A stretch of DNA of 64,000 bases, taken from assembly GCF_024223415.1 (NCBI RefSeq), contig NZ_CP100500.1, one strand, 5' to 3'. Source of the stretch: Escherichia coli. Its GTDB lineage: Bacteria; Pseudomonadota; Gammaproteobacteria; Enterobacterales; Enterobacteriaceae. The position numbers and the translations under genes were made by a program. Of the stretch, positions 30,591 through 55,824 are shown in pieces (within the stretch, counting starts at the first letter, position 1; each line of letters begins with the position of its first letter). The notes below the pieces were generated by a model. It searched no databases. It was not told the DNA's origin and saw only the letters and a program-made list of their open reading frames with translations.

Positions 30591-31274
30591 ATGAAACTGT
30601 TGATTGTCGAAGATGAAAAGAAAACCGGAGAATACTTGACCAAAGGGTTAACCGAAGCCGGTTTTGTGGTCGATTTGGCCGACAACGGGCTGAATGGCTA
30701 CCATCTGGCGATGACCGGAGATTATGACCTGATAATCCTCGATATTATGCTGCCGGACGTGAACGGCTGGGATATCGTGCGCATGTTACGTTCCGCCAAT
30801 AAAGGGATGCCGATTCTGTTGCTTACCGCGCTTGGCACCATTGAACATCGCGTCAAGGGGCTGGAGTTGGGGGCAGATGACTATCTGGTGAAGCCGTTCG
30901 CTTTTGCTGAACTGCTGGCGCGGGTGCGCACTCTACTGCGGCGCGGGGCGGCGGTGATTATCGAAAGTCAGTTTCAGGTTGCCGATTTGATGGTCGATCT
31001 CGTCAGCCGCAAAGTCACCCGCAGCGGCACGCGCATCACTTTGACCAGTAAAGAGTTTACTCTGCTGGAGTTTTTTCTCCGCCATCAGGGCGAAGTGCTG
31101 CCCCGCTCGCTTATCGCCTCGCAGGTATGGGACATGAATTTTGACAGCGACACTAACGCCATTGATGTGGCGGTGAAGCGACTGCGCGGCAAAATCGACA
31201 ACGACTTTGAGCCGAAGCTGATTCAAACCGTGCGCGGCGTGGGTTACATGCTTGAGGTGCCGGATGGTCAGTAA
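30591..31274 (+). CDS. cusR: copper-responsive response regulator CusR (OmpR family)
   Basis: 227-aa ORF; receiver domain plus winged-helix output domain. Confidence 0.93.
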
Positions 31275-32712
31275 GCCATTTCAGCGCCCGTTTTCGCTGG
31301 CAACCCGCCTGACCTTTTTTATCAGCCTGGCCACCATCGCGGCGTTTTTCGCCTTTGCATGGATCATGATCCACTCAGTAAAAGTGCATTTTGCCGAGCA
31401 GGATATTAATGATTTAAAAGAGATTAGCGCCACCCTTGAACGGGTACTAAATCACCCTGACGAAACGCAAGCCCGACGCTTAATGACGCTGGAAGATATC
31501 GTCAGTGGTTATTCCAACGTGTTGATTTCCCTGGCAGATAGCCACGGCAAAACGGTGTATCACTCCCCCGGTGCGCCGGATATCCGCGAGTTTGCACGTG
31601 ATGCCATACCCGATAAAGACGCGCGGGGTGGCGAGGTGTATCTCCTTTCCGGCCCGACGATGATGATGCCAGGCCACGGTCACGGGCATATGGAACACAG
31701 CAACTGGCGGATGATTAACTTGCCGGTTGGCCCGTTGGTGGACGGCAAACCGATTTATACGCTCTACATCGCGCTTTCGATCGATTTTCATCTTCATTAC
31801 ATAAATGATTTGATGAATAAACTTATTATGACCGCATCGGTAATCAGCATCCTGATCGTCTTTATCGTACTGTTGGCGGTACATAAAGGTCACGCGCCGA
31901 TCCGCAGCGTCAGCCGTCAAATCCAGAATATCACCTCGAAAGATCTCGACGTCCGCCTTGACCCGCAGACCGTGCCCATTGAGCTGGAACAGCTGGTACT
32001 GTCGTTCAACCATATGATCGAGCGTATTGAGGATGTCTTTACCCGCCAGTCCAATTTCTCAGCGGACATCGCCCACGAAATTCGCACACCAATTACGAAT
32101 CTCATAACGCAAACCGAAATCGCCCTCAGCCAGTCGCGCAGCCAGAAGGAGCTGGAAGATGTGCTCTACTCTAATCTCGAAGAGCTGACGCGAATGGCGA
32201 AAATGGTCAGCGATATGCTGTTTCTCGCTCAGGCCGATAACAACCAGCTAATCCCCGAAAAGAAAATGCTCAACCTGGCGGATGAAATCGGCAAAGTGTT
32301 CGATTTTTTCGAGGCGTTAGCGGAAGATCGCGGCGTGGAGTTGCAGTTTGTTGGCGACGAGTGCCAGGTTGCGGGCGATCCGCTGATGCTGCGTCGGGCA
32401 TTAAGCAACCTGCTTTCTAATGCCCTGCGTTATACGCCACCCGGAGAGGCTATTGTAGTGCGCTGCCAGACGGTCGAGCATCAGGTGCAAGTTATCGTCG
32501 AAAACCCCGGTACTCCCATTGCGCCCGAGCACTTACCGCGATTGTTTGACCGTTTCTACCGCGTTGACCCTTCCCGCCAGCGAAAAGGCGAAGGTAGCGG
32601 CATTGGGCTGGCGATAGTGAAATCGATTGTTGTCGCACATAAAGGCACGGTTGCAGTAACGTCAGATGCGCGGGGGACAAGGTTTGTGATTGTGTTGCCG
32701 GAGAGGGGGTGA
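31264..32712 (+). CDS. cusS: copper-sensing histidine kinase CusS
   Basis: Start at [10 protein letters not shown] overlapping the cusR stop; two TM segments, H-box [10 protein letters not shown] and ATPase domain. Confidence 0.9.
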
Positions 32713-33305
32713 TTATTAAGTTCAAATTCAGGGCGAGGGTTTACGGCGTTTTTCGCTAAATTTCCATCATTATAAACAAGCCACCTATCATATAAAGCAA
32801 TGAATAATTAAATCGCGATTAATCATCATTAATTTTTATATTATTCACCCAATCCATTTATAAAGTGAATTTGATAAATTCCTAATTTAAAATATCCACT
32901 ATTGAGCCAGTATTTAACAACGTTAAGATGTGCAATGTGCAGATCATGTTATCAGGGTGGAGCGGTAGCATATATTTTTTAAGCAATCATTCATTTTAAT
33001 GATGTTAATTGGGTTATTTAGTTGTGAATAAAAACATATTATGAATATTGGTTTAACTTTGCGTTTTTGTTACTCGCTGTGATGTGCGCACCTGTCCTGA
33101 ATAACGTCAGGAAACAATAAGTTGAGCTTGTGATTATTTTTTTGACTGAACAGACACCCGTTTCTGTAAAGTAATATTTAAACAAAATTCTCACATAATC
33201 ATAGCATTTTTTGTTCCTTCCCTAATAACGTCTTAAGTCGTCCCGCTTATCTCATTATCCGCAGTTGTACGGTGCGGATTATTATTCATTTTACCGGAGG
33301 TTGCT

Positions 33306-35207
33306 ATGTCAACCGGATTACGTTTCACACTGGAAGTGGACGGCCTGCCACCGGACGCTTTTGCGGTGGTTTCCTTTCATCTCACCCAGTCACTCTCTTC
33401 GCTCTTTTCCCTCGATCTCTCCCTGGTCAGCCAGCAGTTTCTCTCCCTTGAATTCCAGCAGATCCTCGACAAAATGGCCTACCTGACGATATGGCAGGGC
33501 GATGACGTACAGCGCCGGGTGAAAGGTGTGGTGACCTGGTTTGAACTGGGGGAGAACGACAAAAACCAGATGCTGTACAGCATGAAGGTATGCCCGCCGC
33601 TGTGGCGTGCCGGTCTGCGCCAGAACTTCCGTATCTTCCAGAACGAGGACATCAAAAGCATCCTCGGCACGATATTGCAGGAAAACGGGGTGACCGAGTG
33701 GAGTCCGCTGTTCAGTGAACCGCATCCTTCCCGTGAGTTTTGTGTCCAGTACGGTGAGACTGATTACGATTTCCTGTGCCGGATGGCGGCGGAGGAAGGC
33801 ATCTTCTTTTATGAGGAGCATGCTTACAAAAGTACCGACCAGAGCCTGGTGCTGTGCGACACGGTCCGCCATCTGCCCGAATCTTTTGAAATCCCATGGA
33901 ACCCGAACACCCGTACCGAGGTGAGCACCCTCTGCATCAGCCAGTTTCGCTACAGCGCACAAATCCGCCCTTCTTCCGTGGTGACCAAAGACTACACCTT
34001 TAAACGCCCCGGCTGGGCAGGACGTTTTGATCAGGAAGGCCAGCACCAGGATTACCAGCGCACGCAGTATGAGGTGTATGACTACCCCGGACGTTTCAAG
34101 GGCGCCCACGGGCAGAACTTTGCCCGCTGGCAGATGGAGGGCTGGCGAAACAATGCAGAAACCGCGCGGGGAATGAGTCGCTCGCCGGAGATATGGCCGG
34201 GACGGCGAATTGTGCTGACGGGGCATCCGCAGGCGAACCTGAACCGGGAATGGCAGGTGGTGGCAAGTGAACTGCACGGCGAGCAGCCGCAGGCGGTGCC
34301 GGGAAGGCGGGGAGCAGGGACGGCGCTGGAGAACCATTTTGCGGTGATCCCGGCAGACCGGACATGGCGACCCCAGCCGCGGCTAAAACCGCTGGTGGAC
34401 GGTCCGCAGAGCGCCGTCGTGACGGGGCCGGAGGGTGAGGAAATCTTCTGTGATGAACATGGCCGAGTGCGGGTGAAATTCAACTGGGACCGTTATAACC
34501 CGGCAGACCAGGACAGCTCGTGCTGGATCCGTGTGGCACAGGCGTGGGCAGGCACCGGTTTTGGCAACCTGGCGATACCGCGTGTGGGTCAGGAGGTGAT
34601 AGTGGACTTCCTCAACGGCGATCCGGACCAGCCGATCATTATGGGGCGCACCTACCACCAGGAAAACCGCACCCCCGGCAGCCTGCCGGGGACGAAGACG
34701 CAGATGACCATCCGTTCCAAAACGTATATGGGCAGCGGGTTTAATGAGCTGAAGTTTGACGATGCGACAGGGAAAGAACAGGTCTACATCCACGCGCAGA
34801 AGGACATGGATACCGAGGTACTCAACGATCGTACCACCACCGTAAAACACGATCATCGCGAAACCGTAAAAAATGACCAGACGGTCACGATACAGGAAGG
34901 TAATCGCCTTCTTATGGTGGAAAAAGGCGACAAGATCACAGGAGTACGAAAAGGTTCTTTATCTGAGAATGTCTTTCAGGACAGAGGCACGATTGCCGGT
35001 TCGGTGCATGTTGACGCTGTAGACAATGGTGGCGAAGGCAACGGTATACAGGCTTATACGGCAATTAAGGAAATTATGCTGGCCGTGGAGGAAAGCAAAA
35101 TTGCGCTGACGCCGGATGGCATTCAGCTACAGGTCGGGGAATCAACGGTAATCAGGCTGTCGAAGGATGGCATCACCATCGTGGGCGGCTCTGTTTTTAT
35201 CAACTGA
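33306..35207 (+). CDS. vgrG: type VI secretion spike protein VgrG (gp27/gp5-like, no C-terminal extension)
   Basis: 633-aa ORF with strong RBS GGAGG; canonical VgrG sequence features; preceded by about 600 bp of AT-rich DNA. Confidence 0.9.
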   Translation: MSTGLRFTLEVDGLPPDAFAVVSFHLTQSLSSLFSLDLSLVSQQFLSLEFQQILDKMAYLTIWQGDDVQRRVKGVVTWFELGENDKNQMLYSMKVCPPLWRAGLRQNFRIFQNEDIKSILGTILQENGVTEWSPLFSEPHPSREFCVQYGETDYDFLCRMAAEEGIFFYEEHAYKSTDQSLVLCDTVRHLPESFEIPWNPNTRTEVSTLCISQFRYSAQIRPSSVVTKDYTFKRPGWAGRFDQEGQHQDYQRTQYEVYDYPGRFKGAHGQNFARWQMEGWRNNAETARGMSRSPEIWPGRRIVLTGHPQANLNREWQVVASELHGEQPQAVPGRRGAGTALENHFAVIPADRTWRPQPRLKPLVDGPQSAVVTGPEGEEIFCDEHGRVRVKFNWDRYNPADQDSSCWIRVAQAWAGTGFGNLAIPRVGQEVIVDFLNGDPDQPIIMGRTYHQENRTPGSLPGTKTQMTIRSKTYMGSGFNELKFDDATGKEQVYIHAQKDMDTEVLNDRTTTVKHDHRETVKNDQTVTIQEGNRLLMVEKGDKITGVRKGSLSENVFQDRGTIAGSVHVDAVDNGGEGNGIQAYTAIKEIMLAVEESKIALTPDGIQLQVGESTVIRLSKDGITIVGGSVFIN

Positions 35208-35234
35208 TTCACTCAGATTATCAGGGAGTATTTT

Positions 35235-35696
35235 ATGCAGTTCACTTTTAATGAAGGCCACATTCAACTGCCGTCTCAATGGCAGGATCAGTCAATGCAG
35301 GTCCTGGTGTCCACAGATAACAGTGGCATCAACCTGGTCATTACCCGCGAAGCCGTTCCACAGGGAACCCTGACACCAGAGCTGTACCAGGAAACGCTGG
35401 CGCTGTACCAGGGCAAACTTGATGGGTACACCGCACATGCCTGCCGGGAAATCACTCTGGCAGAGGCCCCGGCCTGGCTGCTGGATTATTCCTGGAACGG
35501 TCCGGAAGATGAAGGGAATCAGGGGCGGATTAGCCAGATAGCCGTATTCCAGCGGCGTGGAGATACGCTGCTGACCTTCACTTTCAGCACCTCCTTATCC
35601 CTGAAGAACAGTCAAAAGACGATGCTGCTGGAGGTGATAAAGAGCTTCACCCCGTTGCCACCGGAGAATGATATCCAAAAGGACCAGCCGCGCTGA
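35235..35696 (+). CDS. DUF1795-family (Eag-like) effector chaperone/adaptor
   Basis: 153-aa ORF directly between vgrG and a prePAAR Rhs gene, the usual position and size for Eag/DUF1795 chaperones; family assignment is by context and sequence recollection. Confidence 0.7.
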   Translation: MQFTFNEGHIQLPSQWQDQSMQVLVSTDNSGINLVITREAVPQGTLTPELYQETLALYQGKLDGYTAHACREITLAEAPAWLLDYSWNGPEDEGNQGRISQIAVFQRRGDTLLTFTFSTSLSLKNSQKTMLLEVIKSFTPLPPENDIQKDQPR

Positions 35697-35715
35697 CATA
35701 AACGAGGGATAACAC

Positions 35716-38700
35716 ATGAGTGAAGGACCAGGCGGGCCACAGGGAGCGACCGCAGGCGGTACGCTGGCAATGCGAATGCTTTCACAGCAGGCGATGGTCG
35801 CCAGCCAGATGAAACGGGCAGCCAACAACAAAGCCATTGCACAGATGTTGGCATCAAAAAAGTCTGGCCCCCCCGCCGCCAGGCTGGGCGATGAAATTCA
35901 GCACAAGAGTTTTTTGGGGGCGCTGGCAGGGGCCGTGCTGGGGGCGATAGTGACCATCGCAGAAGGTTGCCTGATTATGGCCGCCTGTGCCACCGGCCCT
36001 TATGCGCTGGTTCTGGTGCCTGCGCTGATGTATGCCAGCTATAAGGCGAGTGATTATGTGGAGGAGAAACAGAACCAGCTTGAATCATGGATAAACAGCT
36101 TTTGTGACACGGACGGCGCCATCAATACCGGTTCTGAAAACGTAAAAATTAACGGAAAGCCCGCTGCCAGGGCCGCCGTCACCCTTCCCTCTCCTCCCCC
36201 GCCTGAAGCAATACCCGAAGCCTCACAGGGGGAGCATTCATGGGGTGACATGGCCCTTGACCTGCTTGAATCGGCAGCGGAAAAAGCAGCGCCACTGGCT
36301 AAATCCTGGGGGAACGCTGTTATCACCCTGACGGACAGCAATGCCAGTTTTATGGATCGCGTCAGTGCAGGCGCATCGCTTCTGTTTCCCGCCGGTCCGG
36401 TATTAATGGAGTTTGCCACCATGGTGGGCGGGCGTGGCGAAATCAAAAAAGATGTGGATTTCCCGGAAGCCGGTGAGGACACGGCGCTCTGCGACAAGGA
36501 GAACAAACCACCGAGGATAGCCCAGGGCAGCAGCAACGTCTTTATCAACAATCAGCCTGCCGCGCGCAAGGGCGACAAACTGGAGTGCAGCGCGGCAATC
36601 GTGGAAGGTTCGCCGGACGTCTTTATTGGGGGTGAGCAGGTCACCTATCTGGATATCCAGCCGGAGTTCCCGCCATGGCAGAGAATGATCCTGGGAGGAA
36701 TAACGATAGCCAGCTATCTTCTGCCGCCAGCAGGACTGCTGGGAAAACTGGGGAATCTGGCGAAACTGGGCAAACTGGGAAACCTGCTGGGGAAAAGCGG
36801 GAAGCTGCTGGGCGCAAAACTCGGCGCGTTGCTGGGGAAAACAGGTAAGTCGTTAAAAAGTATTGCCAATAAAGTCATCAGATGGGTAACAGATCCTGTC
36901 GATCCGGTAACCGGCGCGTACTGCGACGAACGTACCGACTTCACCCTGGGCCAGACCCTCCCCCTCTCCTTCACCCGTTTCCACAGTTCTGTACTGCCAC
37001 TGCATGGCCTGACGGGCGTGGGCTGGAGCGACTCCTGGAGCGAATACGCCTGGGTGCGTGAACAGGGAAACCGGGTGGATATCATCAGCCTGGGAGCCAC
37101 GCTGAACTTCGCCTTCGACGGTGAAAGTGATACGGCGGTTAACCCGTATCACGCCCAGTACATTCTGCGCCGCTGCGACGATTACCTGGAGCTGTTCGAC
37201 AGGAATGCACTGAGCAGCCGCTTCTTTTATGACGCCTTTCCGGGAATGCGTCTGCGCCACCCGGTGACTGACGATACCAGCGATGACCGCCTGGCACACA
37301 GCCCCGCAGACCGGATGTACATGCTGGGCGGGATGAGCGACACCGCCAGCAACCGCATCACGTTTGAGCGCGACAGCCAGTACCGGATCACGGGTGTCAG
37401 TCACACCGACGGGATCCGGCTTAAACTGACGTACCACGCCAGCGGCTACCTGAAAGCCATTCACCGCACGGATAACGGCATACAGACGCTGGCGACCTAC
37501 GAACAGGATGCGCGGGGGCGGCTGACAGAAGCGGATGCGCGGCTGGACTACCACCTGTTTTATGAGTACGACGCTGCGGACCGGATCATCCGCTGGTCCG
37601 ATAACGACCAGACGTGGAGCCGTTTCACCTACGATGAACAGGGCCGGTGCGTGACCGTCACCGGGGCGGAGGGCTATTACAACGCCACGCTGGACTATGG
37701 TGACGGCTGCACCACCGTGACGGACGGCAAGGGCATTCACCGTTATTACTATGATCCTGACGGCAATATTCTGCGGGAAGAAGCGCCGGACGGCAGCACC
37801 ACCACGTATGAATGGGATGAATTCCATCACCTGCTGGCCCGCCACTCCCCTGCCAGGCGGGTGGAGAAATTTGAATACAACGCCGCACAGGGTCAGTTAA
37901 GCCGTTACACGGCGGCAGACGGCGCGGAGTGGCAGTACTGCTATGATGAGCGCGGCCTGCTCAGCAACATCACCGACCCTGCCGGGCAGACGTGGACGCA
38001 GCAGTGTGATGAACGCGGCCTGCCGGTAAGTCTGGTGTCGCCACAGGGCGAAGAGACCCGGCTGGCGTACACGCCGCAGGGGCTGCTGTCGGGGATATTC
38101 CGCCAGGATGAACGGCGTCTGGGCATAGAGTACGACCACCACAACCGGCCGGAAACACTCACCGACGTGATGGGCCGTGAACACCACACCGAATACAGCG
38201 GTCACGACCTGCCGGTGAAGATGCGCGGCCCCGGCGGTCAGTCAGTGCGGTTGCAGTGGCAGCAGCACCATAAACTGAGCGGCCTTGAGCGGGCAGGAAC
38301 CGGCGCAGAAGGATTCCGCTATGACCGCCACGGCAACCTGCTGGCGTACACGGACGGTAACGGCGTTGTCTGGACAATGGAATACGGCCCGTTCGATTTG
38401 CCGGTGGCGCGAACGGACGGTGAAGGCCACCGCTGGCAGTACCGCTACGATAAAGACACGCTGCAGCTCACAGAAGTCATTAACCCGCAGGGTGAGTCTT
38501 ATCTTTATATTCTGGACAACTGTGGCCGGGTGACGGAAGAACGTGACTGGGGCGGCGTGGTCTGGCGTTACCGTTATGACGCTGATGGCCTGTGTACCGC
38601 CAGGGTCAACGGCCTGGAGGAAACCATCCTCTACGGCCGGGACGCCGCAGGCCGCCTGGCAGAAGTCATCACGCCGGAAGGTAAAACGCAGTATGCGTAT

Positions 38701-40536
38701 GACAAATCCGGCAGGCTGACGGGTATCTTCAGCCCGGACGGCACATCACAGCGCACCGGCTACGACGAACGCGGGCGGGTGAATGTCACCACTCAGGGCC
38801 GACGGGCCATTGAATACCACTACCCCGACGAACATACCGTCATCCGCTGTATCCTGCCACCGGAAGATGAACGCGACAGACACCCCGATGAATCCCTGCT
38901 GAAAACCACGTACCGCTACAACGCAGCCGGAGAACTGACGGAGGTTATCCTGCCGGGGAATGAGACGCTGACGTTCAGCCGTGATGAGGCAGGACGTGAA
39001 GTGTTCCGGCACAGTAACCGGGGTTTTGCCTGTGAGCAGGGCTGGAATGCAGCCGGCCAGCTTACCAGCCAGCGCGCCGGACTTTTCCCGGAGGAAGCCA
39101 CGTGGGGCGGGCTGGTTCCGTCACTGGTGCGGGAGTACCGTTACGACAGCGCGGGTAATGTGTCAGGCGTCACCAGCCGGGAAGATTACGGACGGGAAAC
39201 ACGGCGGGAATACCGGCTGGACCGGAACGGCCAAGTCACGGCGGTGACAGCCTCAGGCACCGGGCTGGGCTATGGCGAAGGCGATGAGTCCTATGGCTAT
39301 GACAGCTGTGGCTACCTGAAGGCGCAGTCTGCGGGCAGGCACCGGATAAGTGAAGAGACTGACCAGTATGCCGGAGGCCACCGGCTGAAACAGGCCGGAA
39401 ACACGCAGTATGACTATGACGCCGCAGGCCGGATGGTCAGCCGGACAAAACACCGTGACGGCTACCGCCCGGAAACAGAGCGGTTCCGGTGGGACAGCCG
39501 GGACCAGCTGACCGGGTATTGCAGCGCACAGGGTGAGCTGTGGGAATACCGCCACGACGCCAGCGGCAGACGAACAGAGAAACGCTGCGACCGGAAGAAA
39601 ATCCGCTTCACGTATCTGTGGGACGGCGACAGTATTGCGGAAATCCGGGAATACCGCGATGATGAACTGTACAGCGTACGGCACCTGGTGTTTAACGGCT
39701 TTGAGCTGATAAGCCAGCAGTTCAGCCGGGTACGGCAGCCGCACCCGTCCGTGGCTCCGCAGTGGGTGACGCGGACGAATCATGCGGTGAGCGACCTGAC
39801 GGGCCGGCCGCTGATGCTCTTTAACAGTGAAGGTAAAACCGTCTGGCAGCCGGGACAGACCAGCCTGTGGGGGCTGGCACTCAGCCTGCCCGCAGACACA
39901 GACTACCCGGACCCGCGCGGGGAACTGGACCCGGAAGCCGACCCCGGCCTGCTGTATGCGGGACAGTGGCAGGATGCGGAATCCGGGCTGTGCTATAACC
40001 GGTTCCGGTATTACGATCCGGAAACCGGAATGTACCTGGTGAGTGATCCGCTGGGGTTGCAGGGAGGGGAGCAGACTTACCGGTATGTGCCTAATCCTTG
40101 TGGGTATGTTGATCCCTCTGGGTTGGCAATGACTTCGAAAATAGTCAATAAACTACCTTCTGCAAAAGATCTTGCTACAAAAAGGGCCAGTGAGTTATTA
40201 GCAAAGGCAACATCTAATACCCAGCGAAGTAAATTACCAAGGGCAGTTTCAGCTGTTGTTGATAAGAGAACTGGCAAAATATATTATGGAGAAAGTGGCT
40301 GGCCTCACCCAACAGAAATACATCCTACATTACAAAATAATATGCCATCAGCCAGTAAGGAGCGATGGGCAATCGAGAACTGTGCGGAATTTAAAGCTGT
40401 AAATGAAGCTTTGAAGGCAAATGCGAAAATTAGTGATCTTGAAGTTCATACAGTATTGGTAAAAACAGGCGAAGCTTTTCCAATGTGTAAGAATTGTCAA
40501 ATTTCAATATTTGGCGCTGTTGTTACAAGCGGGTGA
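35716..40536 (+). CDS. rhs: Rhs polymorphic toxin with N-terminal prePAAR/TM/PAAR region, YD-repeat shell and a variable C-terminal tip resembling a deaminase-fold toxin
   Basis: 1606-aa ORF; prePAAR motif AARLGDEIQH followed by hydrophobic helices; YD repeats; core ends with DPLGL...DPSGLA (about 40045-40119); after that GC content drops and the tip carries C-A-E (40381..40389) and P-M-C-K-N-C (40480..40497) about 34 residues apart, the zinc-ligand pattern of cytidine/adenosine deaminases. Confidence 0.9.
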   Translation: MSEGPGGPQGATAGGTLAMRMLSQQAMVASQMKRAANNKAIAQMLASKKSGPPAARLGDEIQHKSFLGALAGAVLGAIVTIAEGCLIMAACATGPYALVLVPALMYASYKASDYVEEKQNQLESWINSFCDTDGAINTGSENVKINGKPAARAAVTLPSPPPPEAIPEASQGEHSWGDMALDLLESAAEKAAPLAKSWGNAVITLTDSNASFMDRVSAGASLLFPAGPVLMEFATMVGGRGEIKKDVDFPEAGEDTALCDKENKPPRIAQGSSNVFINNQPAARKGDKLECSAAIVEGSPDVFIGGEQVTYLDIQPEFPPWQRMILGGITIASYLLPPAGLLGKLGNLAKLGKLGNLLGKSGKLLGAKLGALLGKTGKSLKSIANKVIRWVTDPVDPVTGAYCDERTDFTLGQTLPLSFTRFHSSVLPLHGLTGVGWSDSWSEYAWVREQGNRVDIISLGATLNFAFDGESDTAVNPYHAQYILRRCDDYLELFDRNALSSRFFYDAFPGMRLRHPVTDDTSDDRLAHSPADRMYMLGGMSDTASNRITFERDSQYRITGVSHTDGIRLKLTYHASGYLKAIHRTDNGIQTLATYEQDARGRLTEADARLDYHLFYEYDAADRIIRWSDNDQTWSRFTYDEQGRCVTVTGAEGYYNATLDYGDGCTTVTDGKGIHRYYYDPDGNILREEAPDGSTTTYEWDEFHHLLARHSPARRVEKFEYNAAQGQLSRYTAADGAEWQYCYDERGLLSNITDPAGQTWTQQCDERGLPVSLVSPQGEETRLAYTPQGLLSGIFRQDERRLGIEYDHHNRPETLTDVMGREHHTEYSGHDLPVKMRGPGGQSVRLQWQQHHKLSGLERAGTGAEGFRYDRHGNLLAYTDGNGVVWTMEYGPFDLPVARTDGEGHRWQYRYDKDTLQLTEVINPQGESYLYILDNCGRVTEERDWGGVVWRYRYDADGLCTARVNGLEETILYGRDAAGRLAEVITPEGKTQYAYDKSGRLTGIFSPDGTSQRTGYDERGRVNVTTQGRRAIEYHYPDEHTVIRCILPPEDERDRHPDESLLKTTYRYNAAGELTEVILPGNETLTFSRDEAGREVFRHSNRGFACEQGWNAAGQLTSQRAGLFPEEATWGGLVPSLVREYRYDSAGNVSGVTSREDYGRETRREYRLDRNGQVTAVTASGTGLGYGEGDESYGYDSCGYLKAQSAGRHRISEETDQYAGGHRLKQAGNTQYDYDAAGRMVSRTKHRDGYRPETERFRWDSRDQLTGYCSAQGELWEYRHDASGRRTEKRCDRKKIRFTYLWDGDSIAEIREYRDDELYSVRHLVFNGFELISQQFSRVRQPHPSVAPQWVTRTNHAVSDLTGRPLMLFNSEGKTVWQPGQTSLWGLALSLPADTDYPDPRGELDPEADPGLLYAGQWQDAESGLCYNRFRYYDPETGMYLVSDPLGLQGGEQTYRYVPNPCGYVDPSGLAMTSKIVNKLPSAKDLATKRASELLAKATSNTQRSKLPRAVSAVVDKRTGKIYYGESGWPHPTEIHPTLQNNMPSASKERWAIENCAEFKAVNEALKANAKISDLEVHTVLVKTGEAFPMCKNCQISIFGAVVTSG

Positions 40537-40540
40537 TTAT

Positions 40541-40978
40541 ATGTGTGAATTAATTAATGAAGCATCAAAATATGGGAAAGTCAATGTAAGAAAGATGGAC
40601 ATTGATTTGTGTTGTAAAAAAATAGAGGAAGAAGGGTATTCTGTTTTCGTTGCGTTCTATGATTTTATAAAAAAATATGGCGGTTTATATGGCTTTCATT
40701 CAGCTTACAAAGACACCACTATAAGTGAGGCTTTTTTTATAGATCCAGAAAGGGCCTCTAATCGCATTTTTATAGAAAGAGTCAATGATTATATTGAGAG
40801 AGCTGGTTACAATATGATTCCTGTTGGCGAGTGCAGTAATGGTCATATCACATTATTATATGGGGAAAATAATGTGATATATGGCGGCTTGGATGATTAT
40901 CTTTGGAAGTATGGGGATAATTTATCTTCATCAATTGATATATTGATTAATGGTAAGGAGGCAGTTGAAATTCCGTAA
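40541..40978 (+). CDS. putative cognate immunity protein for the Rhs tip
   Basis: AT-rich ORF starting 5 bp after the rhs stop (ATG at 40541; an upstream TTG at 40511 would overlap rhs); position and composition typical of Rhs immunity genes; family unknown. Confidence 0.6.
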   Translation: MCELINEASKYGKVNVRKMDIDLCCKKIEEEGYSVFVAFYDFIKKYGGLYGFHSAYKDTTISEAFFIDPERASNRIFIERVNDYIERAGYNMIPVGECSNGHITLLYGENNVIYGGLDDYLWKYGDNLSSSIDILINGKEAVEIP

Positions 40979-40984
40979 GGCCAA

Positions 40985-42909
40985 CTGCCAGGGCCAACGG
41001 CCTGGAGGAAACCATCCTCAACAGCCGGGACGCCGCAGGCCGCCTGGCAGAAGTCATCTCGCCGGAAGGCAAAACGCAGTATGCGTATGACAAATCCGGC
41101 AGGCTGACGGGTATCTTCAGCCCGGACGGTACATCACAGCGCACCGGCTATGATGAACGCGGGCGGGTGAATGTCACCACTCAGGGCCGACGGGCCATTG
41201 AATACCACTACCCCGATGAACACACCGTCATCCGCTGTATCCTGCCACCGGAAGATGAACGCGACAGACACCCCGATGAATCCCTGCTGAAAACCACATA
41301 CCGCTACAACACCGCCGGAGAACTGACGGAGGTCATTCTGCCGGGGGATGAGACGCTGACGTTCAGCCGTGATGAGGCGGGACGTGAAGTGTTCCGGCAC
41401 AGTAACCGGGGTTTTGCCTGTGAGCAGGGCTGGAATGCAGCCAGCCAGCTTGTCACCCAGCGCGCCGGATTTTTCCCGGAGGAAACCACATGGGGCGGGC
41501 TGCTCCCCTCACTGGTACGGGAGTACCGTTACGACAGCGCGGGCAATGTGTCGGCTGTCACCAGCCGGGAAGATTACGGACGGGAAACACGGCGGGAATA
41601 CCGGCTGGACCGGAACGGCCATGTCACGGCGGTGACAGCCTCAGGCACCGGGCTGGGCTATGGCGAAGGCGATGAGTCCTATGGCTATGACAGCTGCGGC
41701 TACCTGAAGGCGCAGTCTGCGGGCAGGCACCGGATAAGTGAAGAGACTGACCAGTATGCCGGAGGCCACCGGCTGAAACAGGCCGGAAACACGCAGTATG
41801 ACTATGACGCCGCAGGCCGGATGGTCAGCCGGACAAAACACCGTGACGGCTACCGCCCGGAAACAGAGCGGTTCCGGTGGGACAGCCGGGACCAGCTGAC
41901 CGGGTATTGCAGCGCACAGGGTGAGCAGTGGGAATACCGCCACGACGCCAGCGGCAGACGGACGGAAAAACGCTGTGACCGGAAGAAAATCCGTTTTACG
42001 TACCTGTGGGACGGCGACAGTATTGCGGAAATCCGGGAATACCGCGATGATGAACTGTACAGCGTACGGCACCAGGTGTTTAACGGCTTTGAGCTGATAA
42101 GCCAGCAGTTCAGCCGGGTACGGCAGCCGCACCCGTCCGTGGCCCCGCAGTGGGTGACGCGGACGAATCACGCGGTGAGCGACCCGACGGGCCGCCCGCT
42201 GATGCTCTTTAACAGTGAAGGCAAGACGGTCTGGCGGCCGGGGCAGACCAGCCTGTGGGGGCTGGCACTCAGCCTGCCCGCAGACACCGACGACCCGGAC
42301 CCGCGCGGGGAACTGGACGCGGAAGCCGACCCCGGCCTGCTGTATGCAGGACAGTGGCGGGATGGGGAATCCGGGCTGTGCTATAACCGGTTCAGGTACT
42401 ACGAGCCGGAAACCGGAATGTACCTGGTGAGTGATCCACTGGGGTTGCTGGGGGGTGAGCAGACTTACCGGTATGTGCCTAATCCACTGGGTTGGATTGA
42501 CCAGTATGGACTTGCTGGTTGCCCCAGAGCTCTGGCAAGGGCAATGAAACGGGCTAACAGAAACCTAGCTAAGAGTGCCGGATACATGAATCGAGCTTGG
42601 TATAAATTCAAAGGTTCTGCCGCCCATCATATTGTTGCTTGGGATGACCCCCGTGCTTTAGGCGCAAGAAAAATTCTGGAAAAATATGGTATACACATTG
42701 ATTCCGCAGAAAATGGAATATTTTTGAAACATGTAGATCCAAACTCTCTTCAGCCAGGATCTTATCATCGTGTTATTCATACGAACAAATATTATGCTGA
42801 TGTTGAGGCACGACTCGCAGACGCAGCTAAGGCTAATGGGAAACAAGGTGTTCTTGATGAGTTAGATGCTATCAGGGATGACCTGCTTTTTAATAGACTA
42901 ATTTATTAA
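40985..42909 (+). pseudogene. orphan rhs fragment (about 1.5 kb of core plus a distinct tip of the AHH nuclease family), no N-terminal region
   Basis: Nucleotides about 40988-42500 are near-identical to the main rhs at about 38599-40115; after its own DPLGL motif the tip differs and contains GSAAHHIVAWDD (AHH at 42622..42630), then ENGIFL and SYHRVIH, matching the HNH-like AHH family; longest internal ORF is 41167..42909. Confidence 0.7.
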
Positions 42910-42922
42910 TAAGGGCATAGTA

Positions 42923-43456
42923 ATGAATGTTTATTTAATTCGGCATGATGTGGACAACTTCAAGTTTTACTTGCAAGACGAGAGTGACTTTCTTTCAGTT
43001 GCTGCTTTTGATTTTTGTGGAGAGTCTCTATTTAATGGATGGAAACCATACAAAATAGAGCTATTTAAAGGAAAAACTAAAGCTGAGAAATCATTAAACG
43101 GGGATTTTAATTCATCATGTTTTAGTCCAGGATTATTATACGTCGAACATTCTCTCGCAGATGTATTATCTCGTCAGGCAAATGATATTGAGTTATTAAA
43201 AGTAATCACCAGTGATGATCGTGATTTTTATTATGCAAACGTGGTAGGGAAAATACCAGCCTTACATTATAACAACAGACAAGAGCTACAAATTATGAGT
43301 AGAACACAAGAATATAAATTCAATAACTCCATAAATGAAATGTTAATATTTCGTGATAAAACATTACCTTCAAACTATTTTGTTACAGATCGTTTTGTGG
43401 ATATTTTTCAGAATGATTTTCGTGGGGTAATTTTTAAAAAAGTTGGTGAGATATAA
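42923..43456 (+). CDS. putative immunity protein for the orphan AHH-nuclease tip
   Basis: 177-aa AT-rich ORF immediately downstream of the orphan tip; family unknown. Confidence 0.6.
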   Translation: MNVYLIRHDVDNFKFYLQDESDFLSVAAFDFCGESLFNGWKPYKIELFKGKTKAEKSLNGDFNSSCFSPGLLYVEHSLADVLSRQANDIELLKVITSDDRDFYYANVVGKIPALHYNNRQELQIMSRTQEYKFNNSINEMLIFRDKTLPSNYFVTDRFVDIFQNDFRGVIFKKVGEI

Positions 43457-43482
43457 CTTAATGCATTGAACATCTAACCCGT

Positions 43483-44015
43483 ACCGCTATGACCGCCACG
43501 GTAACCTGCTGGCGTACACGGACGGTAACGGCGTTGTCTGGACGATGGAATACGGCCCGTTCGATTTGCCGGTCGCGCGAACGGACGGTGAAGGCCACCG
43601 CTGGTGGTACCGCTACGATAAAGACACGCTGCAACTGACAGAAGTCATCAACCCGCAGGGTGAGTCATATCTTTATGTTCTGGATAACTGTGGCCGGGTG
43701 ACGGAAGAGCGTGACTGGGGCGGCGTGGTCTGGCGTTACCGCTATGACGCCGATGGCCTCTGTACCGCCAGGGTCAACGGACTGGAGGAAACCATCCTCT
43801 ACAGCCGGGACGCTGCAGGGCGCCTGGCAGAAGTCATCACGCCGGAAGGGAAAACGCAGTATGCGTATGACAAATCCGGCAGGCTGACGGGTATCTTCAG
43901 CCCGGACGGCATATCACAGCGCACCGGCTATGACGAACGCGGGCGGGTGAATGTCACCACTCAGGGCCGACGGGCAGGGAAAGATCATCAGAAGTTCACT
44001 TTTTGTACTAAATAA
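43483..44015 (+). pseudogene. second rhs core fragment (about 0.5 kb) truncated at the H-repeat insertion
   Basis: Near-identical to the main rhs at about 38316-38808; ORF 43545..44015 ends in a short unrelated tail (GKDHQKFTFCTK) where the H-repeat element begins. Confidence 0.65.
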
Positions 44016-45300
44016 TTCGCATTTTATGTTTAAAAATTGAGATATTCCTCATTATCCGAAGCTGTTTTTTATTGCTTATACATGATCAAATACTCCTTAC
44101 ATAATTAAGGAGAACAAAATGGAACTTAAAAAATTGATGGAACATATTTCTATTATCCCCGATTACAGACAAGCCTGGAAAGTGGAACATAAATTATCAG
44201 ATATTCTACTGTGGACTATTTGTGCCGTTATTTCTGGTGCAGAAGGTTGGGAAGATATAGAGGATTTTGGGGAAACACATCTCGATTTTTTGAAGCAATA
44301 TGGTGATTTTGAAAATGGTATTCCTGTTCACGATACCATTGCCAGAGTTGTATCCTGTATCAGTCCTGCAAAATTTCACGAGTGCTTTATTAACTGGATG
44401 CGTGACTGCCATTCTTCAGATGATAAAGACGTCATTGCAATTGATGGAATAACGCTCCGGCACTCTTATGATAAGAGTCGTCGCAGGGGAGCGATTCATG
44501 TCATTAGTGCGTTCTCAACAATGCACAGTCTGGTCCTCGGACAGATCAGGACGGATGAGAAATCTAATGAGATTACAGCTATTCCTGAACTTCTTAACAT
44601 GATGGATATTAAAGGAAAAATCATCACAACTGATGCGATGGGTTGCCAGAAAGATATTGCAGAAAAGATACAAAAACAGGGAGGGGATTATTTATTCGCT
44701 GTAAAGGGAAATCAGGGGCGACTAAATAAAGCCTTTGAGGAAAAATTCCCGCTGAAAGAATTAAATAATCCAGAGCATGACAGTTACGCAATCAGTGAAA
44801 AGAGTCACGGCAGAGAAGAAATCCGTCTTCATATTGTTTACGATGTCCCTGATGAACTTATTGATTTCACGTTTGAATGGAAAGGGCTGAAGAAATTATG
44901 CGTGGCAGTCTCCTTTCGGTCCATAATAGCAGAACAAAAGAAAGAGCCAAAAATGACGGTCAGATATTATATCAGTTCTGCTGATTTAACCGCAGAGAAG
45001 TTCGCCACAGCAATCCGAAACCACTGGCACGTGGAGAATAAGCTGCACTGGCGTCTGGACGTGGTAATGAATGAAGACGACTGCAAAATAAGAAGAGGAA
45101 ATGCAGCAGAATTATTTTCAGGGATACGGCACATTGCTATTAATATTTTGACGAATGATAAGGTATTCAAGGCAGGGTTAAGACGTAAGATGCGAAAAGC
45201 AGCCATGGACAGAAACTATCTGGCGTCAGTCCTTGCGGGGAGCGGGCTTTCGTAATCTTGCCCTGCCTGCTCACCTCCAGGCACTTCCACTACATCATGA
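44016..45300 (+). mobile_element. H-repeat (H-rpt) insertion element, boundaries approximate
   Basis: Encloses the H-rpt transposase ORF; left edge set where rhs homology stops (about 43976-44016); right edge not defined by recognisable terminal repeats. Confidence 0.45.
44119..45255 (+). CDS. H-repeat-associated protein (ISAs1-family transposase, YhhI/YdcC-like)
   Basis: 378-aa ORF closely resembling the H-rpt proteins found next to K-12 Rhs elements; sits at the distal end of the Rhs island. Confidence 0.85.
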
Positions 45301-45520
45301 CCTGATCGGTGCCACCACTCCTCTTCACTATGACGTTAACCTCCCCTCCTTGACACCACGCTTTTGTCTACATTCTACGCAAACGGCAACTTTTATAACC
45401 AGTGTAAAAATAACGTGCCGCAATAGTCATACCTATTAATGGTAAAAAGCTGTCACAATTCATAAAAAACCTTAATATACGCCACCCTAAACATAACCAG
45501 CGTTAATGTAAGGTTTTTGT

Positions 45521-52642: not shown

Positions 52643-53065
52643 TTCCTAGAACGACATTTTAAGTCAACAACTTACCGCGCCATCTCTGCGCTCACACGTC
52701 CCACTACCTCAAAACATGTAAAGCCTTGCAAGCCATTGTGAGGCCTTATGTGTCTCAGTTTTGTCCCTCTTTTTTGTACCAAAAAACATAGCAATTGAGG
52801 ATAAACCTCATGCTATTTTCGCTTATATGCCTCTAAAGGCATGGCACTTAAATAGATAAAAGCACCACAAAAGCATAAAAAAACCACACAGTAAAACCGC
52901 AATATGAAACAATAACAGATAATTAAACCAAAAACAGATAGCGCATTGTGATAATCATTCAATACTAAACAAAATATAAACAGTGGAGCAATATGTAATT
53001 GACTCATTAAGTTAGATATAAAAAATACATATTCAATCATTAAAACGATTGAATGGAGAACTTTT

Positions 53066-54019
53066 ATGCGGGCGAAACTTCTGGGAATAGTCCTGACAAC
53101 CCCTATTGCGATCAGCTCTTTTGCTTCTACCGAGACTTTATCGTTTACTCCTGACAACATAAATGCGGACATTAGTCTTGGAACTCTGAGCGGAAAAACA
53201 AAAGAGCGTGTTTATCTAGCCGAAGAAGGAGGCCGAAAAGTCAGTCAACTCGACTGGAAATTCAATAACGCTGCAATTATTAAAGGTGCAATTAATTGGG
53301 ATTTGATGCCCCAGATATCTATCGGGGCTGCTGGATGGACAACTCTCGGCAGCCGAGGTGGCAATATGGTCGATCAGGACTGGATGGATTCCAGTAACCC
53401 CGGAACCTGGACGGATGAAAGTAGACACCCTGATACACAACTCAATTATGCCAACGAATTTGATCTGAATATCAAAGGCTGGCTCCTCAACGAACCCAAT
53501 TACCGCCTGGGACTCATGGCTGGATATCAGGAAAGCCGTTATAGCTTTACAGCCAGAGGTGGTTCCTATATCTACAGTTCTGAGGAGGGATTCAGAGATG
53601 ATATCGGCTCCTTCCCGAATGGAGAAAGAGCAATCGGCTACAAACAACGTTTTAAAATGCCCTACATTGGCTTGACTGGAAGTTATCGTTATGAAGATTT
53701 TGAACTCGGTGGCACATTTAAATACAGCGGCTGGGTGGAATCATCTGATAACGATGAACACTATGACCCGGGAAAAAGAATCACTTATCGCAGTAAGGTC
53801 AAAGACCAAAATTACTATTCTGTTGCAGTCAATGCAGGTTATTACGTCACACCTAACGCAAAAGTTTATGTTGAAGGCGCATGGAATCGGGTTACGAATA
53901 AAAAAGGTAATACTTCACTTTATGATCACAATAATAACACTTCAGACTACAGCAAAAATGGAGCAGGTATAGAAAACTATAACTTCATCACTACTGCTGG
54001 TCTTAAGTACACATTTTAA
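53066..54019 (+). CDS. ompT: outer-membrane protease OmpT (omptin)
   Basis: 317-aa ORF recognised as OmpT (MRAKLLGIVLTTPIAISSFA...AGLKYTF). Confidence 0.93.
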   Translation: MRAKLLGIVLTTPIAISSFASTETLSFTPDNINADISLGTLSGKTKERVYLAEEGGRKVSQLDWKFNNAAIIKGAINWDLMPQISIGAAGWTTLGSRGGNMVDQDWMDSSNPGTWTDESRHPDTQLNYANEFDLNIKGWLLNEPNYRLGLMAGYQESRYSFTARGGSYIYSSEEGFRDDIGSFPNGERAIGYKQRFKMPYIGLTGSYRYEDFELGGTFKYSGWVESSDNDEHYDPGKRITYRSKVKDQNYYSVAVNAGYYVTPNAKVYVEGAWNRVTNKKGNTSLYDHNNNTSDYSKNGAGIENYNFITTAGLKYTF

Positions 54020-54268
54020 GAACGCCAACTAAAATTTCCCCGAGGTGAAAATCGCCCCGGGGAATAACTAGCCATTTCAATGTAACAATTAACCCTTAAA
54101 ATAAACCCAGAAGGTTATTAACTAAATCACATAAAAAACCATCAATTATAGTATGTATAAAATAGGCGACAGCAACCCAATTACAAATTAATGGTTCCAG
54201 AATATCACATCAAAAAAAACGCTGTATAATATTATAATTAACATGTAGACAACTTGTAATAAACATTA

Positions 54269-55638: not shown

Positions 55639-55824
55639 TCAGGCTTCCAGCAACGATCTTTCTTCCTCCGTTGCGATTTCCAGATCTACAGCATCCTGCA
55701 GTGGCGCAATATACTCACTGAATTCCTGGATGTAGAACTGTGTGGTGACGGTCTTCCAGCCATTCGGCTCCTGCTGTATTGAAGCATACCAGGCTATTTC
55801 AATATCGCTATGCTGCGGCAGCAT
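55639..55824 (-). pseudogene. tfaX: tail fiber assembly protein remnant (tfaX-like C-terminal fragment)
   Basis: 61-aa ORF sharing [22 protein letters not shown] with the intact Tfa at 56604..57188 but lacking the rest. Confidence 0.6.

What the first reader, a model, noticed from the sequence alone, without database searches (positions are those of the whole stretch)
32713..33305. About 600 bp of strongly AT-rich non-coding DNA upstream of vgrG
The composition is far from the flanking genes and has many A/T tracts, typical of horizontally acquired DNA and of H-NS-bound silenced promoters. It probably contains the island promoter and its regulatory sites.
Basis: inference. Interest (0 to 1): 0.3.

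Follow-up and report, generated by a model that had tools for sequence, protein, structure and literature searches.

The report
AT-rich leader of orphan vgrG-Rhs island
This 593-bp AT-rich gap is the island-borne regulatory leader of an E. coli orphan type VI secretion effector island (vgrG-EagR-Rhs, O-island 30), almost certainly an H-NS-silenced promoter region, and is ordinary apart from a small, unexplained near-invariant 55-bp core.

Summary
Positions 32713-33305 are exactly the gap between the cusS stop and the vgrG ATG. GC is 32.5% against 52% for the window, which puts it in the lowest 2.2% of 593-bp windows. The "many A/T tracts" are no more than this composition predicts.

The gap belongs to a ~12.7-kb E. 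coli island (~32690-45379): vgrG, a DcrB/DUF1795 protein, PAAR-Rhs, immunity genes and an ISAs1 element. K-12 lacks this island between cusS and nfrB.

The leader is a family with copies at two loci, cusS and yncH/rhsE. It was not found upstream of VgrG orthologues in other genera.

Published data on the K-12 yncH-rhsE paralogue report H-NS binding in vivo and in vitro, and sigma70-holoenzyme binding in vitro. That copy is ~82-84% identical.

On average the leader diverges like synonymous sites. The exception is a 55-bp core (32920-32974), which is 82-100% conserved in every lineage and found in 5290 of 5426 E. coli genomes. It carries the best promoter-like site and a weakly supported mini-ORF.

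No Rfam family, sigma54 promoter, Fur, CRP, IHF or Fis signal was found. Overall this is a new member of a known kind, of low to moderate interest.

The parts
32690..32712 (+). Left junction of the island, inside the last codons of cusS. The CusS C-terminus here is ...[10 protein letters not shown], against ...RFVITLPA* in K-12.
   Evidence: Alignment with the K-12 cusS-nfrB region and translations.
32713..33305 (+). The AT-rich non-coding leader: the whole cusS-vgrG gap, 32.5% GC.
   Evidence: No Rfam match. No intrinsic terminator predicted.
32753..32762 (+). TCGCTAAATT, a 9/10 match to the H-NS high-affinity motif TCGWTWAATT (motif recalled from Lang et al. 2007).
   Evidence: The motif is not enriched over the whole 64-kb window (15 observed, 14.7 expected), so this is suggestive only.
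32865..32888 (+). Conserved upstream block GTGAATTTGATAAATTCCTAATTT. It contains TTGATAAATT (32871-32880), a second 9/10 H-NS-motif match.
   Evidence: Invariant or nearly so across alleles from both loci; motif match.
32920..32974 (+). Near-invariant 55-bp core: ACGTTAAGATGTGCAATGTGCAGATCATGTTATCAGGGTGGAGCGGTAGCATATA.
   Evidence: The core is 82-100% identical in all lineages while flanks are 54-83%. It is found in 5290 of 5426 E. coli genomes and precedes unrelated cargos at the ansP/yncH locus.
32949..32976 (+). P1, the best sigma70-like promoter candidate: TTATCA-16-TATATT. The predicted start is near 32983, giving a 5' UTR of ~320 nt.
   Evidence: It is the only + strand hit of the consensus scan. 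It is kept in all 7 full-length alleles. Prediction only.
32935..32982 (+). Candidate mini-ORF of 15 codons, MCRSCYQGGAVAYIF*. The K-12 allele reads 25 aa, MAMCRSCYQGGAVAYIPYTNHHSFQ.
   Evidence: The frame is open in every allele, and two core polymorphisms are synonymous (GGA/GGG, GCA/GCG). Against it: no clear SD, the CxxC is lost in the 4314 and Ecol_448 alleles, there is no Pfam hit, and it is absent from a K-12 smORF list.
32942..32945 (.). The only GATC (Dam) site in the leader, 4 nt upstream of the P1 -35 hexamer.
   Evidence: It is lost in the 98222, 4314 and Ecol_448 alleles.
33063..33064 (.). Site of a deletion (11 nt against the K-12 allele, 10-14 nt against the other long alleles) relative to yncH-type and N4220121-type alleles. 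It removes the promoter TTGACT-17-TATTAC that was proposed for K-12.
   Evidence: Alignments; PMC3946193.
33151..33177 (+). P2, a second conserved promoter-like site: CAGACA-15-TAATAT, with TAAAAT in other alleles. It would give a 5' UTR of ~120 nt.
   Evidence: Present in all 7 full-length alleles. It scores 8-9 of 12. Prediction only.
33200..33217 (.). Position homologous to the K-12 PhoB ChIP-seq site (CATGACATTTTTCTGATA). Here it reads CATAGCATTTTTTGTTCC, so the PhoB box is not kept.
   Evidence: PMC10294691; alignment.
33257..33279 (+). Hairpin AUCCGCA-(9 nt)-UGCGGAU followed by a U-rich tract. The stem ends 17 nt (16 intervening nt) before the SD.
   Evidence: The outer stem is kept in the yncH-locus allele with a longer insert, and is weakened in the N4220121 allele. 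There is no z-score support.
33294..33305 (+). CCGGAGGTTGCT (SD GGAGG at 33296-33300). This is the only part of the gap shared with the main-cluster hcp3-vgrG3 spacer.
   Evidence: blastn against the O157 T6SS cluster: identity starts 12 nt before the ATG.
33306..35207 (+). vgrG, the first gene of the island operon (called vgrG-2 or vgrG1, Z0707 in EDL933).
   Evidence: Pfam; RefSeq annotation of a 99.8% identical O157 locus; PMC5363993, PMC7216683.

Best explanation
The gap is the 5' regulatory leader of a horizontally acquired orphan T6SS effector island: vgrG, a DUF1795/EagR-type chaperone, PAAR-Rhs toxin, immunity genes and an ISAs1 element. This island is O-island 30 of EHEC.

The most likely mechanism is as follows. 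H-NS nucleates on the very AT-rich upstream part (21-30% GC around 32750-32900, with two near-consensus high-affinity motifs). It then spreads over the whole ~560 bp and occludes one or more sigma70 promoters that drive the vgrG operon. The best promoter candidate is P1 (TTATCA-16-TATATT, 32949-32976) inside the invariant core. The island stays silent under laboratory conditions until an unknown counter-silencing signal acts. A long 5' UTR (~120-320 nt) may add a post-transcriptional layer.

Shown: the composition, island membership, the two-locus family, the conserved core, and the identity of the downstream genes.

Shown only for the K-12 paralogue, from the literature: H-NS binding and RNA polymerase binding.

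Inferred: H-NS silencing of this copy, the promoter position, and the existence of a UTR.
For: Composition and exact gap coordinates.

Island borders by comparison with K-12.

Gene content.

The same leader lies at two loci, in 3758 of 5426 genomes with a median of 2 copies.

K-12 paralogue. PMC3946193 reports an RpoD-holoenzyme SELEX site and an H-NS SELEX site in the yncH>rhsE spacer. PMC10294691 reports that the PhoB peak at 1527862, which lies in the leader, is in an H-NS ChIP-seq-bound region.

EHEC T6SS genes are de-repressed in an hns mutant, and expression is very low in vitro: PMC5363993.

The main-cluster promoter region (tssB-hcp3 spacer) has the same composition, 32.6% GC over 696 bp, without any homology.

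Non-homologous AT-rich stretches of 400-600 bp precede some VgrG orthologues in other genera (L013, L014).

P1 and P2 are conserved in all 7 full-length alleles.

The core is conserved well above its flanks.
Against: There are no H-NS occupancy data and no hns-dependent expression data for this copy or for Z0707.

The SELEX-predicted K-12 promoter (TTGACT-17-TATTAC) and the K-12 PhoB box are both destroyed in this allele, so paralogue data do not transfer base for base.

The consensus scan finds 4 promoter-like sites in 1 kb against 2.3 +/- 1.7 in shuffles. Promoter-like matches are therefore close to expectation in such AT-rich DNA.

Averaged over its length the leader diverges like synonymous sites: 84% identity against 82% at vgrG third codon positions. 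Most of it need not be functional.

No TSS or smORF for the K-12 copy turned up in two supplementary data sets. This fits silencing but gives no positive support.

PMC13141884 reports that replacing the vgrG1 promoter gave no detectable VgrG1 or RhsF. Transcriptional silencing alone may therefore not explain the lack of expression.
Confidence: 0.7

Rival explanations
1. The functional heart of the leader is post-transcriptional. In this reading the conserved core and the long UTR act as a leader-peptide (uORF MCRSCYQGGAVAY...) or RNA element that gates translation or elongation into vgrG. H-NS would be secondary.
For: The core is near-invariant while the flanks drift.

An ATG-initiated frame through the core stays open in every allele, with different tails. 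The two polymorphic core sites among the main alleles are synonymous.

A hairpin with a U-rich tail lies just upstream of the SD.

PMC13141884 found no VgrG1 or RhsF after promoter replacement and suggested post-transcriptional repression. The same paper showed that the analogous hcp3-vgrG3 spacer represses vgrG3 translation.
Against: No convincing SD precedes the mini-ORF.

The 4314 and Ecol_448 alleles change TCATGT to TTAAGA (S->L, C->R), which destroys the CxxC. The APEC allele replaces the start region.

An invariant stretch without a stop codon is open in all alleles by construction.

The metagenome variants were retrieved with a pattern that fixed most positions, so they cannot test codon-position bias.

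There is no Rfam hit and no folding z-score: -1.4, -0.6 and +0.1. There is no Pfam hit. It is not in the Stringer 2021 smORF table.

The leader shares nothing with the hcp3-vgrG3 spacer except the SD.
Confidence: 0.12
2. The gap is mostly non-functional. In this reading it is a drifting AT-rich remnant carried along with the island. The core is conserved because it is a recombination or gene-conversion and IS-targeting junction, not because it regulates anything. vgrG would then be transcribed by read-through from cusRS, or not at all.
For: Leader identity between paralogues (84%) is about equal to vgrG third-position identity (82%).

Alleles differ by large indels (~143 bp, 11 bp, 10-27 bp).

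Both the left and the right neighbours of the core vary between lineages. At least two independent ISAs1-family ends lie 0-10 bp after the core.

No intrinsic terminator is predicted between cusS and vgrG, and in both loci the upstream gene points the same way.

Many island genes are pseudogenes in O157.
Against: In vitro RNA polymerase holoenzyme binding is reported for the paralogous spacer (PMC3946193).

The core is kept at 82-100% identity even where the cargo was replaced, and also in the more diverged 4314 and APEC lineages. That is easier to explain by selection than by a single recombination breakpoint.

A long untranslated AT-rich stretch after cusS would be expected to provoke Rho-dependent termination of read-through. 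This is general knowledge and was not tested here.
Confidence: 0.13
3. The leader holds a promoter controlled by a dedicated T6SS regulator of a known type. The candidates are sigma54 with an enhancer-binding protein (as in Vibrio and Pseudomonas T6SS) or a Fur/Dam epigenetic switch (as in the EAEC sci1 cluster).
For: Such regulation is common for T6SS clusters (general knowledge; PMC8855297 for P. aeruginosa orphan vgrG islands).

One GATC lies 4 nt upstream of the P1 -35 hexamer.

An RpoN SELEX peak is listed between yncH and ydcD in K-12 (PMC8743547).
Against: There is no + strand match to TGGCAC-N5-TTGCW with 3 or fewer mismatches in the gap.

The RpoN peak is given in U00096.2 coordinates (checked against pspF/pspA). 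It therefore falls inside the 3' part of rhsE, not in the leader (my coordinate conversion).

The best Fur-box match is 12/19. That is equalled in 85% of shuffles, and CRP, IHF and Fis are likewise at background.

The GATC is lost in several alleles.
Confidence: 0.05

Closest known systems
K-12 yncH-rhsE intergenic region (leader of the RhsE / 'vgrE' orphan locus)
   Same: It is a true paralogue. Identity is 82-84% over ~360-500 bp, with the same core and the same orientation relative to vgrG/Rhs. It is reported as H-NS-bound and RNA-polymerase-bound (PMC3946193, PMC10294691).
   Different: In K-12 the vgrG gene is deleted and the leader is fused to a truncated rhsE. The K-12 SELEX-predicted promoter and the PhoB box are not conserved in the window allele. 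The chromosomal site also differs (yncH rather than cusS).
H-NS-silenced promoter regions of T6SS clusters (EHEC tssB-hcp3 bidirectional promoter 't6sP'; Salmonella SPI-6)
   Same: All are long AT-rich intergenic regions at the head of horizontally acquired T6SS genes. The EHEC region is 32.6% GC over 696 bp against 32.5% over 593 bp here. hns deletion de-represses the EHEC cluster (PMC5363993).
   Different: There is no sequence homology. The region here is unidirectional, because the upstream gene cusS is co-oriented. Silencing of this copy has not been tested.
EHEC h3R (hcp3-vgrG3 intergenic regulatory region, PMC13141884)
   Same: It lies immediately upstream of a closely related vgrG and shares the SD/start context CCGGAGGTTGCTATG. 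That region was shown to hold a terminator and a promoter, and to repress vgrG3 translation.
   Different: h3R is 209 bp and 53% GC, and it is unrelated in sequence beyond the last 12 nt.
P. aeruginosa orphan vgrG islands (RsmA- and sigma54/Sfa2-controlled, PMC8855297)
   Same: The concept is the same: satellite vgrG-effector islands whose own leaders tie them to the regulation of the main machine.
   Different: No sigma54 promoter is present here. No evidence was sought for CsrA/RsmA GGA-motif hairpins beyond general folding. The organism and the sequences are different.

Membership tests
H-NS-silenced xenogeneic promoter region | AT content well above the genome average over several hundred bp | tested here: met
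   32.5% GC against 52.2%; lowest 2.2% of 593-bp windows; minimum 21%.
H-NS-silenced xenogeneic promoter region | Lies in horizontally acquired DNA (presence/absence polymorphism, definable junctions) | tested here: met
   K-12 has an empty site. Junctions lie at ~32690 and ~45380. An ISAs1 element sits at the far end. Distribution among E. coli is patchy, and the leader is absent in other genera.
H-NS-silenced xenogeneic promoter region | H-NS occupancy in vivo or in vitro | not testable with these tools
   Reported only for the K-12 paralogue: ChIP-seq flag in PMC10294691 Table 1 and a SELEX mark in PMC3946193. Here there are two 9/10 matches to TCGWTWAATT, but the motif is not enriched window-wide.
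H-NS-silenced xenogeneic promoter region | De-repression of the downstream gene when hns is removed | not testable with these tools
   Shown for EHEC main-cluster genes z0254, z0264 and z0267 (PMC5363993). No data were found for Z0707.
H-NS-silenced xenogeneic promoter region | Contains a functional promoter | tested here: inconclusive
   P1 and P2 are conserved in all 7 full-length alleles, but the count of promoter-like hits is near shuffle expectation. RNA polymerase binding is reported for the paralogue only, and that study's predicted hexamers are deleted here.
Orphan vgrG / Rhs element (T6SS effector island) | VgrG spike gene followed by an adaptor, a PAAR-Rhs toxin with a variable C-terminal tip, and a cognate immunity gene | tested here: met
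   Pfam hits: Phage_GPD/Phage_base_V/Gp5_C; DcrB (DUF1795 type); PAAR_motif + RHS_repeat + a weak YwqJ-deaminase tip; SUKH-3. RefSeq annotation agrees.
Known structured RNA (riboswitch, sRNA, leader) in Rfam | Match to a covariance model | tested here: not met
   No match at E <= 1 on either strand of 32000-34000. Folding z-scores are -1.4 to +1.1.
Leader-peptide / uORF attenuator | Start codon with SD, peptide conserved at the amino-acid level, alternative terminator/antiterminator structures | tested here: inconclusive
   An open frame exists in all alleles and two changes are synonymous. However, there is no clear SD, some alleles carry non-conservative changes, no alternative structures were detected, and only a weak hairpin with a U-tract lies before the SD.
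sigma54-dependent T6SS promoter | -24/-12 element TGGCAC-N5-TTGCW on the coding strand | tested here: not met
   No + strand hit with 3 or fewer mismatches in 32713-33305. The K-12 RpoN SELEX peak maps outside the leader.
Fur/Dam epigenetic T6SS switch (EAEC sci1 type) | Fur boxes overlapping GATC sites at the promoter | tested here: not met
   The best Fur match is 12/19, at shuffle background. There is a single GATC, which is not conserved in all alleles.

The most novel reading that the evidence does not exclude
The 55-bp near-invariant core (32920-32974) may be a dedicated cis-regulatory switch shared by all orphan T6SS effector islands at the cusS and ansP/yncH loci of E. coli. It could be the promoter plus operator for an as yet unknown regulator, or a translated Cys-containing leader peptide. 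Either would couple whatever effector cargo sits downstream to a common signal. This could also explain why simple promoter replacement or hns deletion does not yield VgrG or Rhs protein in EHEC.
Probability: 0.25. Interest if true: 0.45.

Novelty: new member of a known kind. Interest (0 to 1): 0.25.

Why it matters
Expression of E. coli T6SS-2 and its satellite Rhs effector islands has resisted activation in the laboratory (PMC5363993, PMC13141884). The natural inducing signal is unknown. Defining the leader as island-borne shows where to look for that control. It is shared by the two orphan loci, H-NS-bound in its K-12 copy, and contains one short conserved core. Beyond that, the finding is a textbook example of an AT-rich, xenogeneically silenced promoter region and does not change current understanding.

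Tried and rejected
Rfam search with permissive E-values: no match.

RNA folding of the putative UTR, of the core on both strands, and of the pre-SD hairpin in three alleles: no significant z-scores.

sigma54 promoter scan: nothing on the coding strand.

K-12 RpoN SELEX peak 'yncH>ydcD' at 1,527,534. This was rejected after I noticed that the paper uses U00096.2 coordinates, as shown by the pspF/pspA peak at 1,366,070. The peak therefore lies within rhsE.

Fur, CRP, IHF and Fis consensus matches: at shuffle background.

H-NS motif TCGWTWAATT: two near-matches in the gap, but no window-wide enrichment.

A/T-tract count: equal to shuffles.

Homology to the main-cluster promoter and to h3R: none beyond the SD.

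Search for the leader outside Escherichia:
- A 20-mer scan of 100,044 species representatives found nothing.
- VgrG orthologues in Pseudocitrobacter, Citrobacter, Yokenella, Atlantibacter and Superficieibacter have no homologous leader.
- All 120 metagenome matches retrieved had E. coli-like cusS or ansP/yncG/yncH contexts.

Small ORFs in the gap: no Pfam hits. The 51-aa minus-strand ORF is broken by indels in other alleles.

TSS and smORF evidence for the K-12 copy:
- Nothing in the Stringer 2021 supplement.
- Nothing in the Kim 2012 supplement.
- The Cappable-seq file is truncated.
- No supplementary files are held for the Weaver 2019 and Kahramanoglou 2011 papers; the Thomason 2015 paper is not held at all.

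Primer details for the published vgrG1 promoter swap: not in the held supplements.

Core as an ISAs1 terminal repeat: rejected. Only CAGGG is shared with the IS ends.

Full report
1. THE OBSERVATION

The window is E. coli chromosome. cusCFBA lies on the minus strand. cusR (30591-31274) and cusS (ending at 32712) lie on the plus strand. After a gap, an ORF starts at 33306.

Pfam identifies that ORF as VgrG (Phage_GPD, Phage_base_V, Gp5 C-terminal domain). It is followed by a DcrB/DUF1795 protein, a 1606-aa PAAR-Rhs protein with a weak YwqJ-deaminase-like tip, and a SUKH-3 immunity protein. RefSeq annotation of a 99.8% identical O157:H7 locus agrees.

The coordinates 32713-33305 are exactly the cusS-vgrG gap. 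Its GC content is 0.325 against 0.522 for the window. Only 2.2% of 593-bp windows are as low, and 100-bp bins fall to 21%. No ORF in the gap exceeds 51 aa and none has a Pfam match. The compositional observation is therefore confirmed.

The "many A/T tracts" do not exceed what the composition gives: 11 observed against 10.3 +/- 2.7 in shuffles. A wedge-model bend estimate, with parameters recalled from memory, puts two spots (~32755 and ~33110) in the top 1% of the window. The mean is only slightly raised. AA/TT dinucleotides show a periodicity peak at 11.75 bp that exceeds shuffles.

2. WHERE THE DNA COMES FROM

K-12 MG1655 has only 149 bp between cusS and nfrB. Aligned to K-12, homology stops inside the last codons of cusS at ~32690. 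CusS ends ...[10 protein letters not shown] here and ...RFVITLPA in K-12. Homology resumes at ~45380, just after an ISAs1 element (transposase ORF 44119-45255).

The whole AT-rich gap is therefore the leftmost part of a ~12.7-kb island. In EDL933 this island is O-island 30 (Z0700-Z0707), also called the vgrG-2 or vgrG1 orphan locus (PMC12981562, PMC5363993, PMC7216683, PMC2907692).

3. A TWO-LOCUS LEADER FAMILY

The 593 bp match 3758 of 5426 complete E. coli genomes, with a median of two places per genome. The places are:
- the cusS locus, with alleles ~100%, ~94% and ~80-84% identical;
- the yncH locus, where the same leader precedes a second vgrG-Rhs pair, "vgrE".

In K-12 the vgrG gene is gone and the leader abuts truncated rhsE.

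The region from about 32825 to 33260 is shared between loci. Leader identity between loci is 84%. That is about the same as third-codon-position identity of the adjoining vgrG genes (82%), while first and second positions are 97% identical. On average, then, the leader drifts at roughly the synonymous rate. Alleles also differ by indels: ~143 bp after cusS, 11 bp at 33063/33064, and 10-27 bp before the SD.

Homology to the spacer upstream of the main-cluster vgrG3 begins only 12 nt before the ATG (CCGGAGGTTGCTATG). The main-cluster tssB-hcp3 promoter region has the same composition (32.6% GC, 696 bp) but no homology.

VgrG orthologues (77-93% aa identity) in Pseudocitrobacter, Citrobacter, Yokenella, Atlantibacter and Superficieibacter have no homologous leader. 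Some follow hcp in a main cluster. Two have unrelated AT-rich stretches upstream.

4. EXPERIMENTAL EVIDENCE, ALL FROM THE K-12 PARALOGUE

Shimada et al. list the yncH>rhsE spacer among sites bound in vitro by RpoD holoenzyme alone. They mark it as also containing an H-NS SELEX site (PMC3946193).

Fitzgerald et al. found a weak PhoB ChIP-seq peak at 1527862, inside the leader. They flag the region as H-NS-bound according to the Kahramanoglou 2011 ChIP-seq (PMC10294691).

Both sequence elements named in those papers are absent from the window allele:
- the promoter TTGACT-17-TATTAC;
- the PhoB box CATGACATTTTTCTGATA.

So the general properties transfer, but the details do not.

In EHEC the main T6SS cluster is barely expressed in vitro and rises up to ~60-fold in an hns mutant (PMC5363993). 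A 2026 study adds that replacing the vgrG1 promoter gave no detectable VgrG1 or RhsF. Its authors suspect a post-transcriptional block (PMC13141884). Details of that construct were not in the held supplements.

5. ANATOMY OF THE LEADER

Only one + strand site passes the consensus promoter scan: TTATCA-16-TATATT at 32949-32976, called P1 here. P1 is conserved in all seven full-length alleles. So is a weaker site, P2, CAGACA-15-TAATAT at 33151-33177.

P1 lies inside a 55-bp core (32920-32974). The core is 82-100% identical in every lineage examined, while the 130 bp on either side are 54-83% identical.

The core alone is found in 5290 of 5426 genomes. At the ansP/yncG/yncH locus it precedes quite different cargos:
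- vgrG-Rhs;
- an Rhs fragment plus another vgrG plus DcrB;
- an ISAs1 remnant plus PAAR-vgrG-M35 peptidase in B2/APEC strains;
- only an ISAs1-family element.

All 120 metagenome matches retrieved were E. coli-like and fell into the same two loci.

A short frame through the core stays open in all alleles. It reads MCRSCYQGGAVAYIF here, starting at ATG 32935, and has 25 aa in K-12. Two core polymorphisms are synonymous. Several points argue against a real peptide:
- there is no clear SD;
- some alleles make non-conservative changes that remove both the CxxC and the single GATC;
- the metagenome variants were retrieved with a pattern that fixed most positions;
- the K-12 ORF is absent from one ribosome-profiling smORF table.

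A 7-bp hairpin with a U-rich tail ends 17 nt upstream of the SD and is partly conserved. Folding energies are not unusual.

Rfam gives nothing. There is no sigma54 promoter. Fur, CRP, IHF and Fis matches are at background. No intrinsic terminator separates cusS from vgrG.

6. INTERPRETATION

The best-supported reading is the ordinary one. The gap is the island's own regulatory leader. It is an AT-rich, H-NS-bound region holding the sigma70 promoter or promoters of the vgrG-EagR-Rhs operon, probably with a long 5' UTR. Confidence is about 0.7.

It is not supported by any data on this copy.

The rivals are:
- a mainly post-transcriptional element, either a uORF or an RNA (0.12);
- largely non-functional drift, with the core as a recombination or IS-target junction and transcription by read-through from cusS (0.13);
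- a known T6SS-type regulator such as sigma54 or Fur/Dam (0.05).

7. NOVELTY AND SCORE

AT-rich H-NS-silenced leaders of acquired islands are well known, and the paralogous K-12 spacer already appears in genome-wide H-NS and RNA polymerase binding lists. This copy is a new member of a known kind.

The one feature I could not explain is the near-invariant 55-bp core, which is kept whatever cargo follows. If it proves to be a shared switch for the orphan effector islands, it would be of moderate interest to the T6SS field. Overall interest is 0.25.

Noticed in passing
window 32690-32712 (and the right junction at ~45380): The island's left junction lies inside cusS. The last codons of CusS are island-derived: ...[10 protein letters not shown] here against ...RFVITLPA* in K-12.
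   Followed up: yes
L020 ~3537-3560; L021 3530-3545; L058 (minus strand) ~30 bp after the core: At least two independent ISAs1-family ends (CAGGGAAAGAT..., CAGGGAAAAAGC...) begin 0-10 bp downstream of the 55-bp core at the ansP/yncH locus. The Ecol_448 form looks like a 7-bp (ATCAGGG) microhomology deletion of the APEC form. This may be an insertion hot spot at the putative transcription start.
   Followed up: partly
window 32755/32756 and 33063/33064: This allele lacks ~143 bp that other cusS-locus alleles carry just after cusS. It also has an 11-bp deletion that removes the promoter hexamers predicted for the K-12 paralogue.
   Followed up: yes
window 40191-41024, 41167-43574, 44119-45255: The rest of the island holds low-GC modules: the Rhs C-terminal tip with SUKH-3 immunity, a second orphan Rhs C-terminal fragment (580-aa ORF) with small downstream ORFs, and an ISAs1 element. 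This is the classic Rhs-element layout.
   Followed up: partly
window 52711-55904: This is the largest low-GC block in the window (28-40% GC). By gene order after nfrBA-ybcH it should be the envY-ompT-appY region, which I recall from general knowledge to be an H-NS target area.
   Followed up: no
L015 (NZ_VTAV01000062.1, 257 bp): A 257-bp contig in a Sphingobacterium phlebotomi assembly encodes a 94% identical VgrG fragment at very low coverage. It is probably E. coli contamination of that assembly.
   Followed up: no
K-12 NC_000913.3 ~1529511 (inside rhsE, upstream of ydcD): The RpoN-holoenzyme SELEX peak listed as 'yncH>ydcD' (PMC8743547) maps, after coordinate conversion, to the AT-rich 3' tip of the rhsE pseudogene rather than to the leader.
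   Followed up: partly
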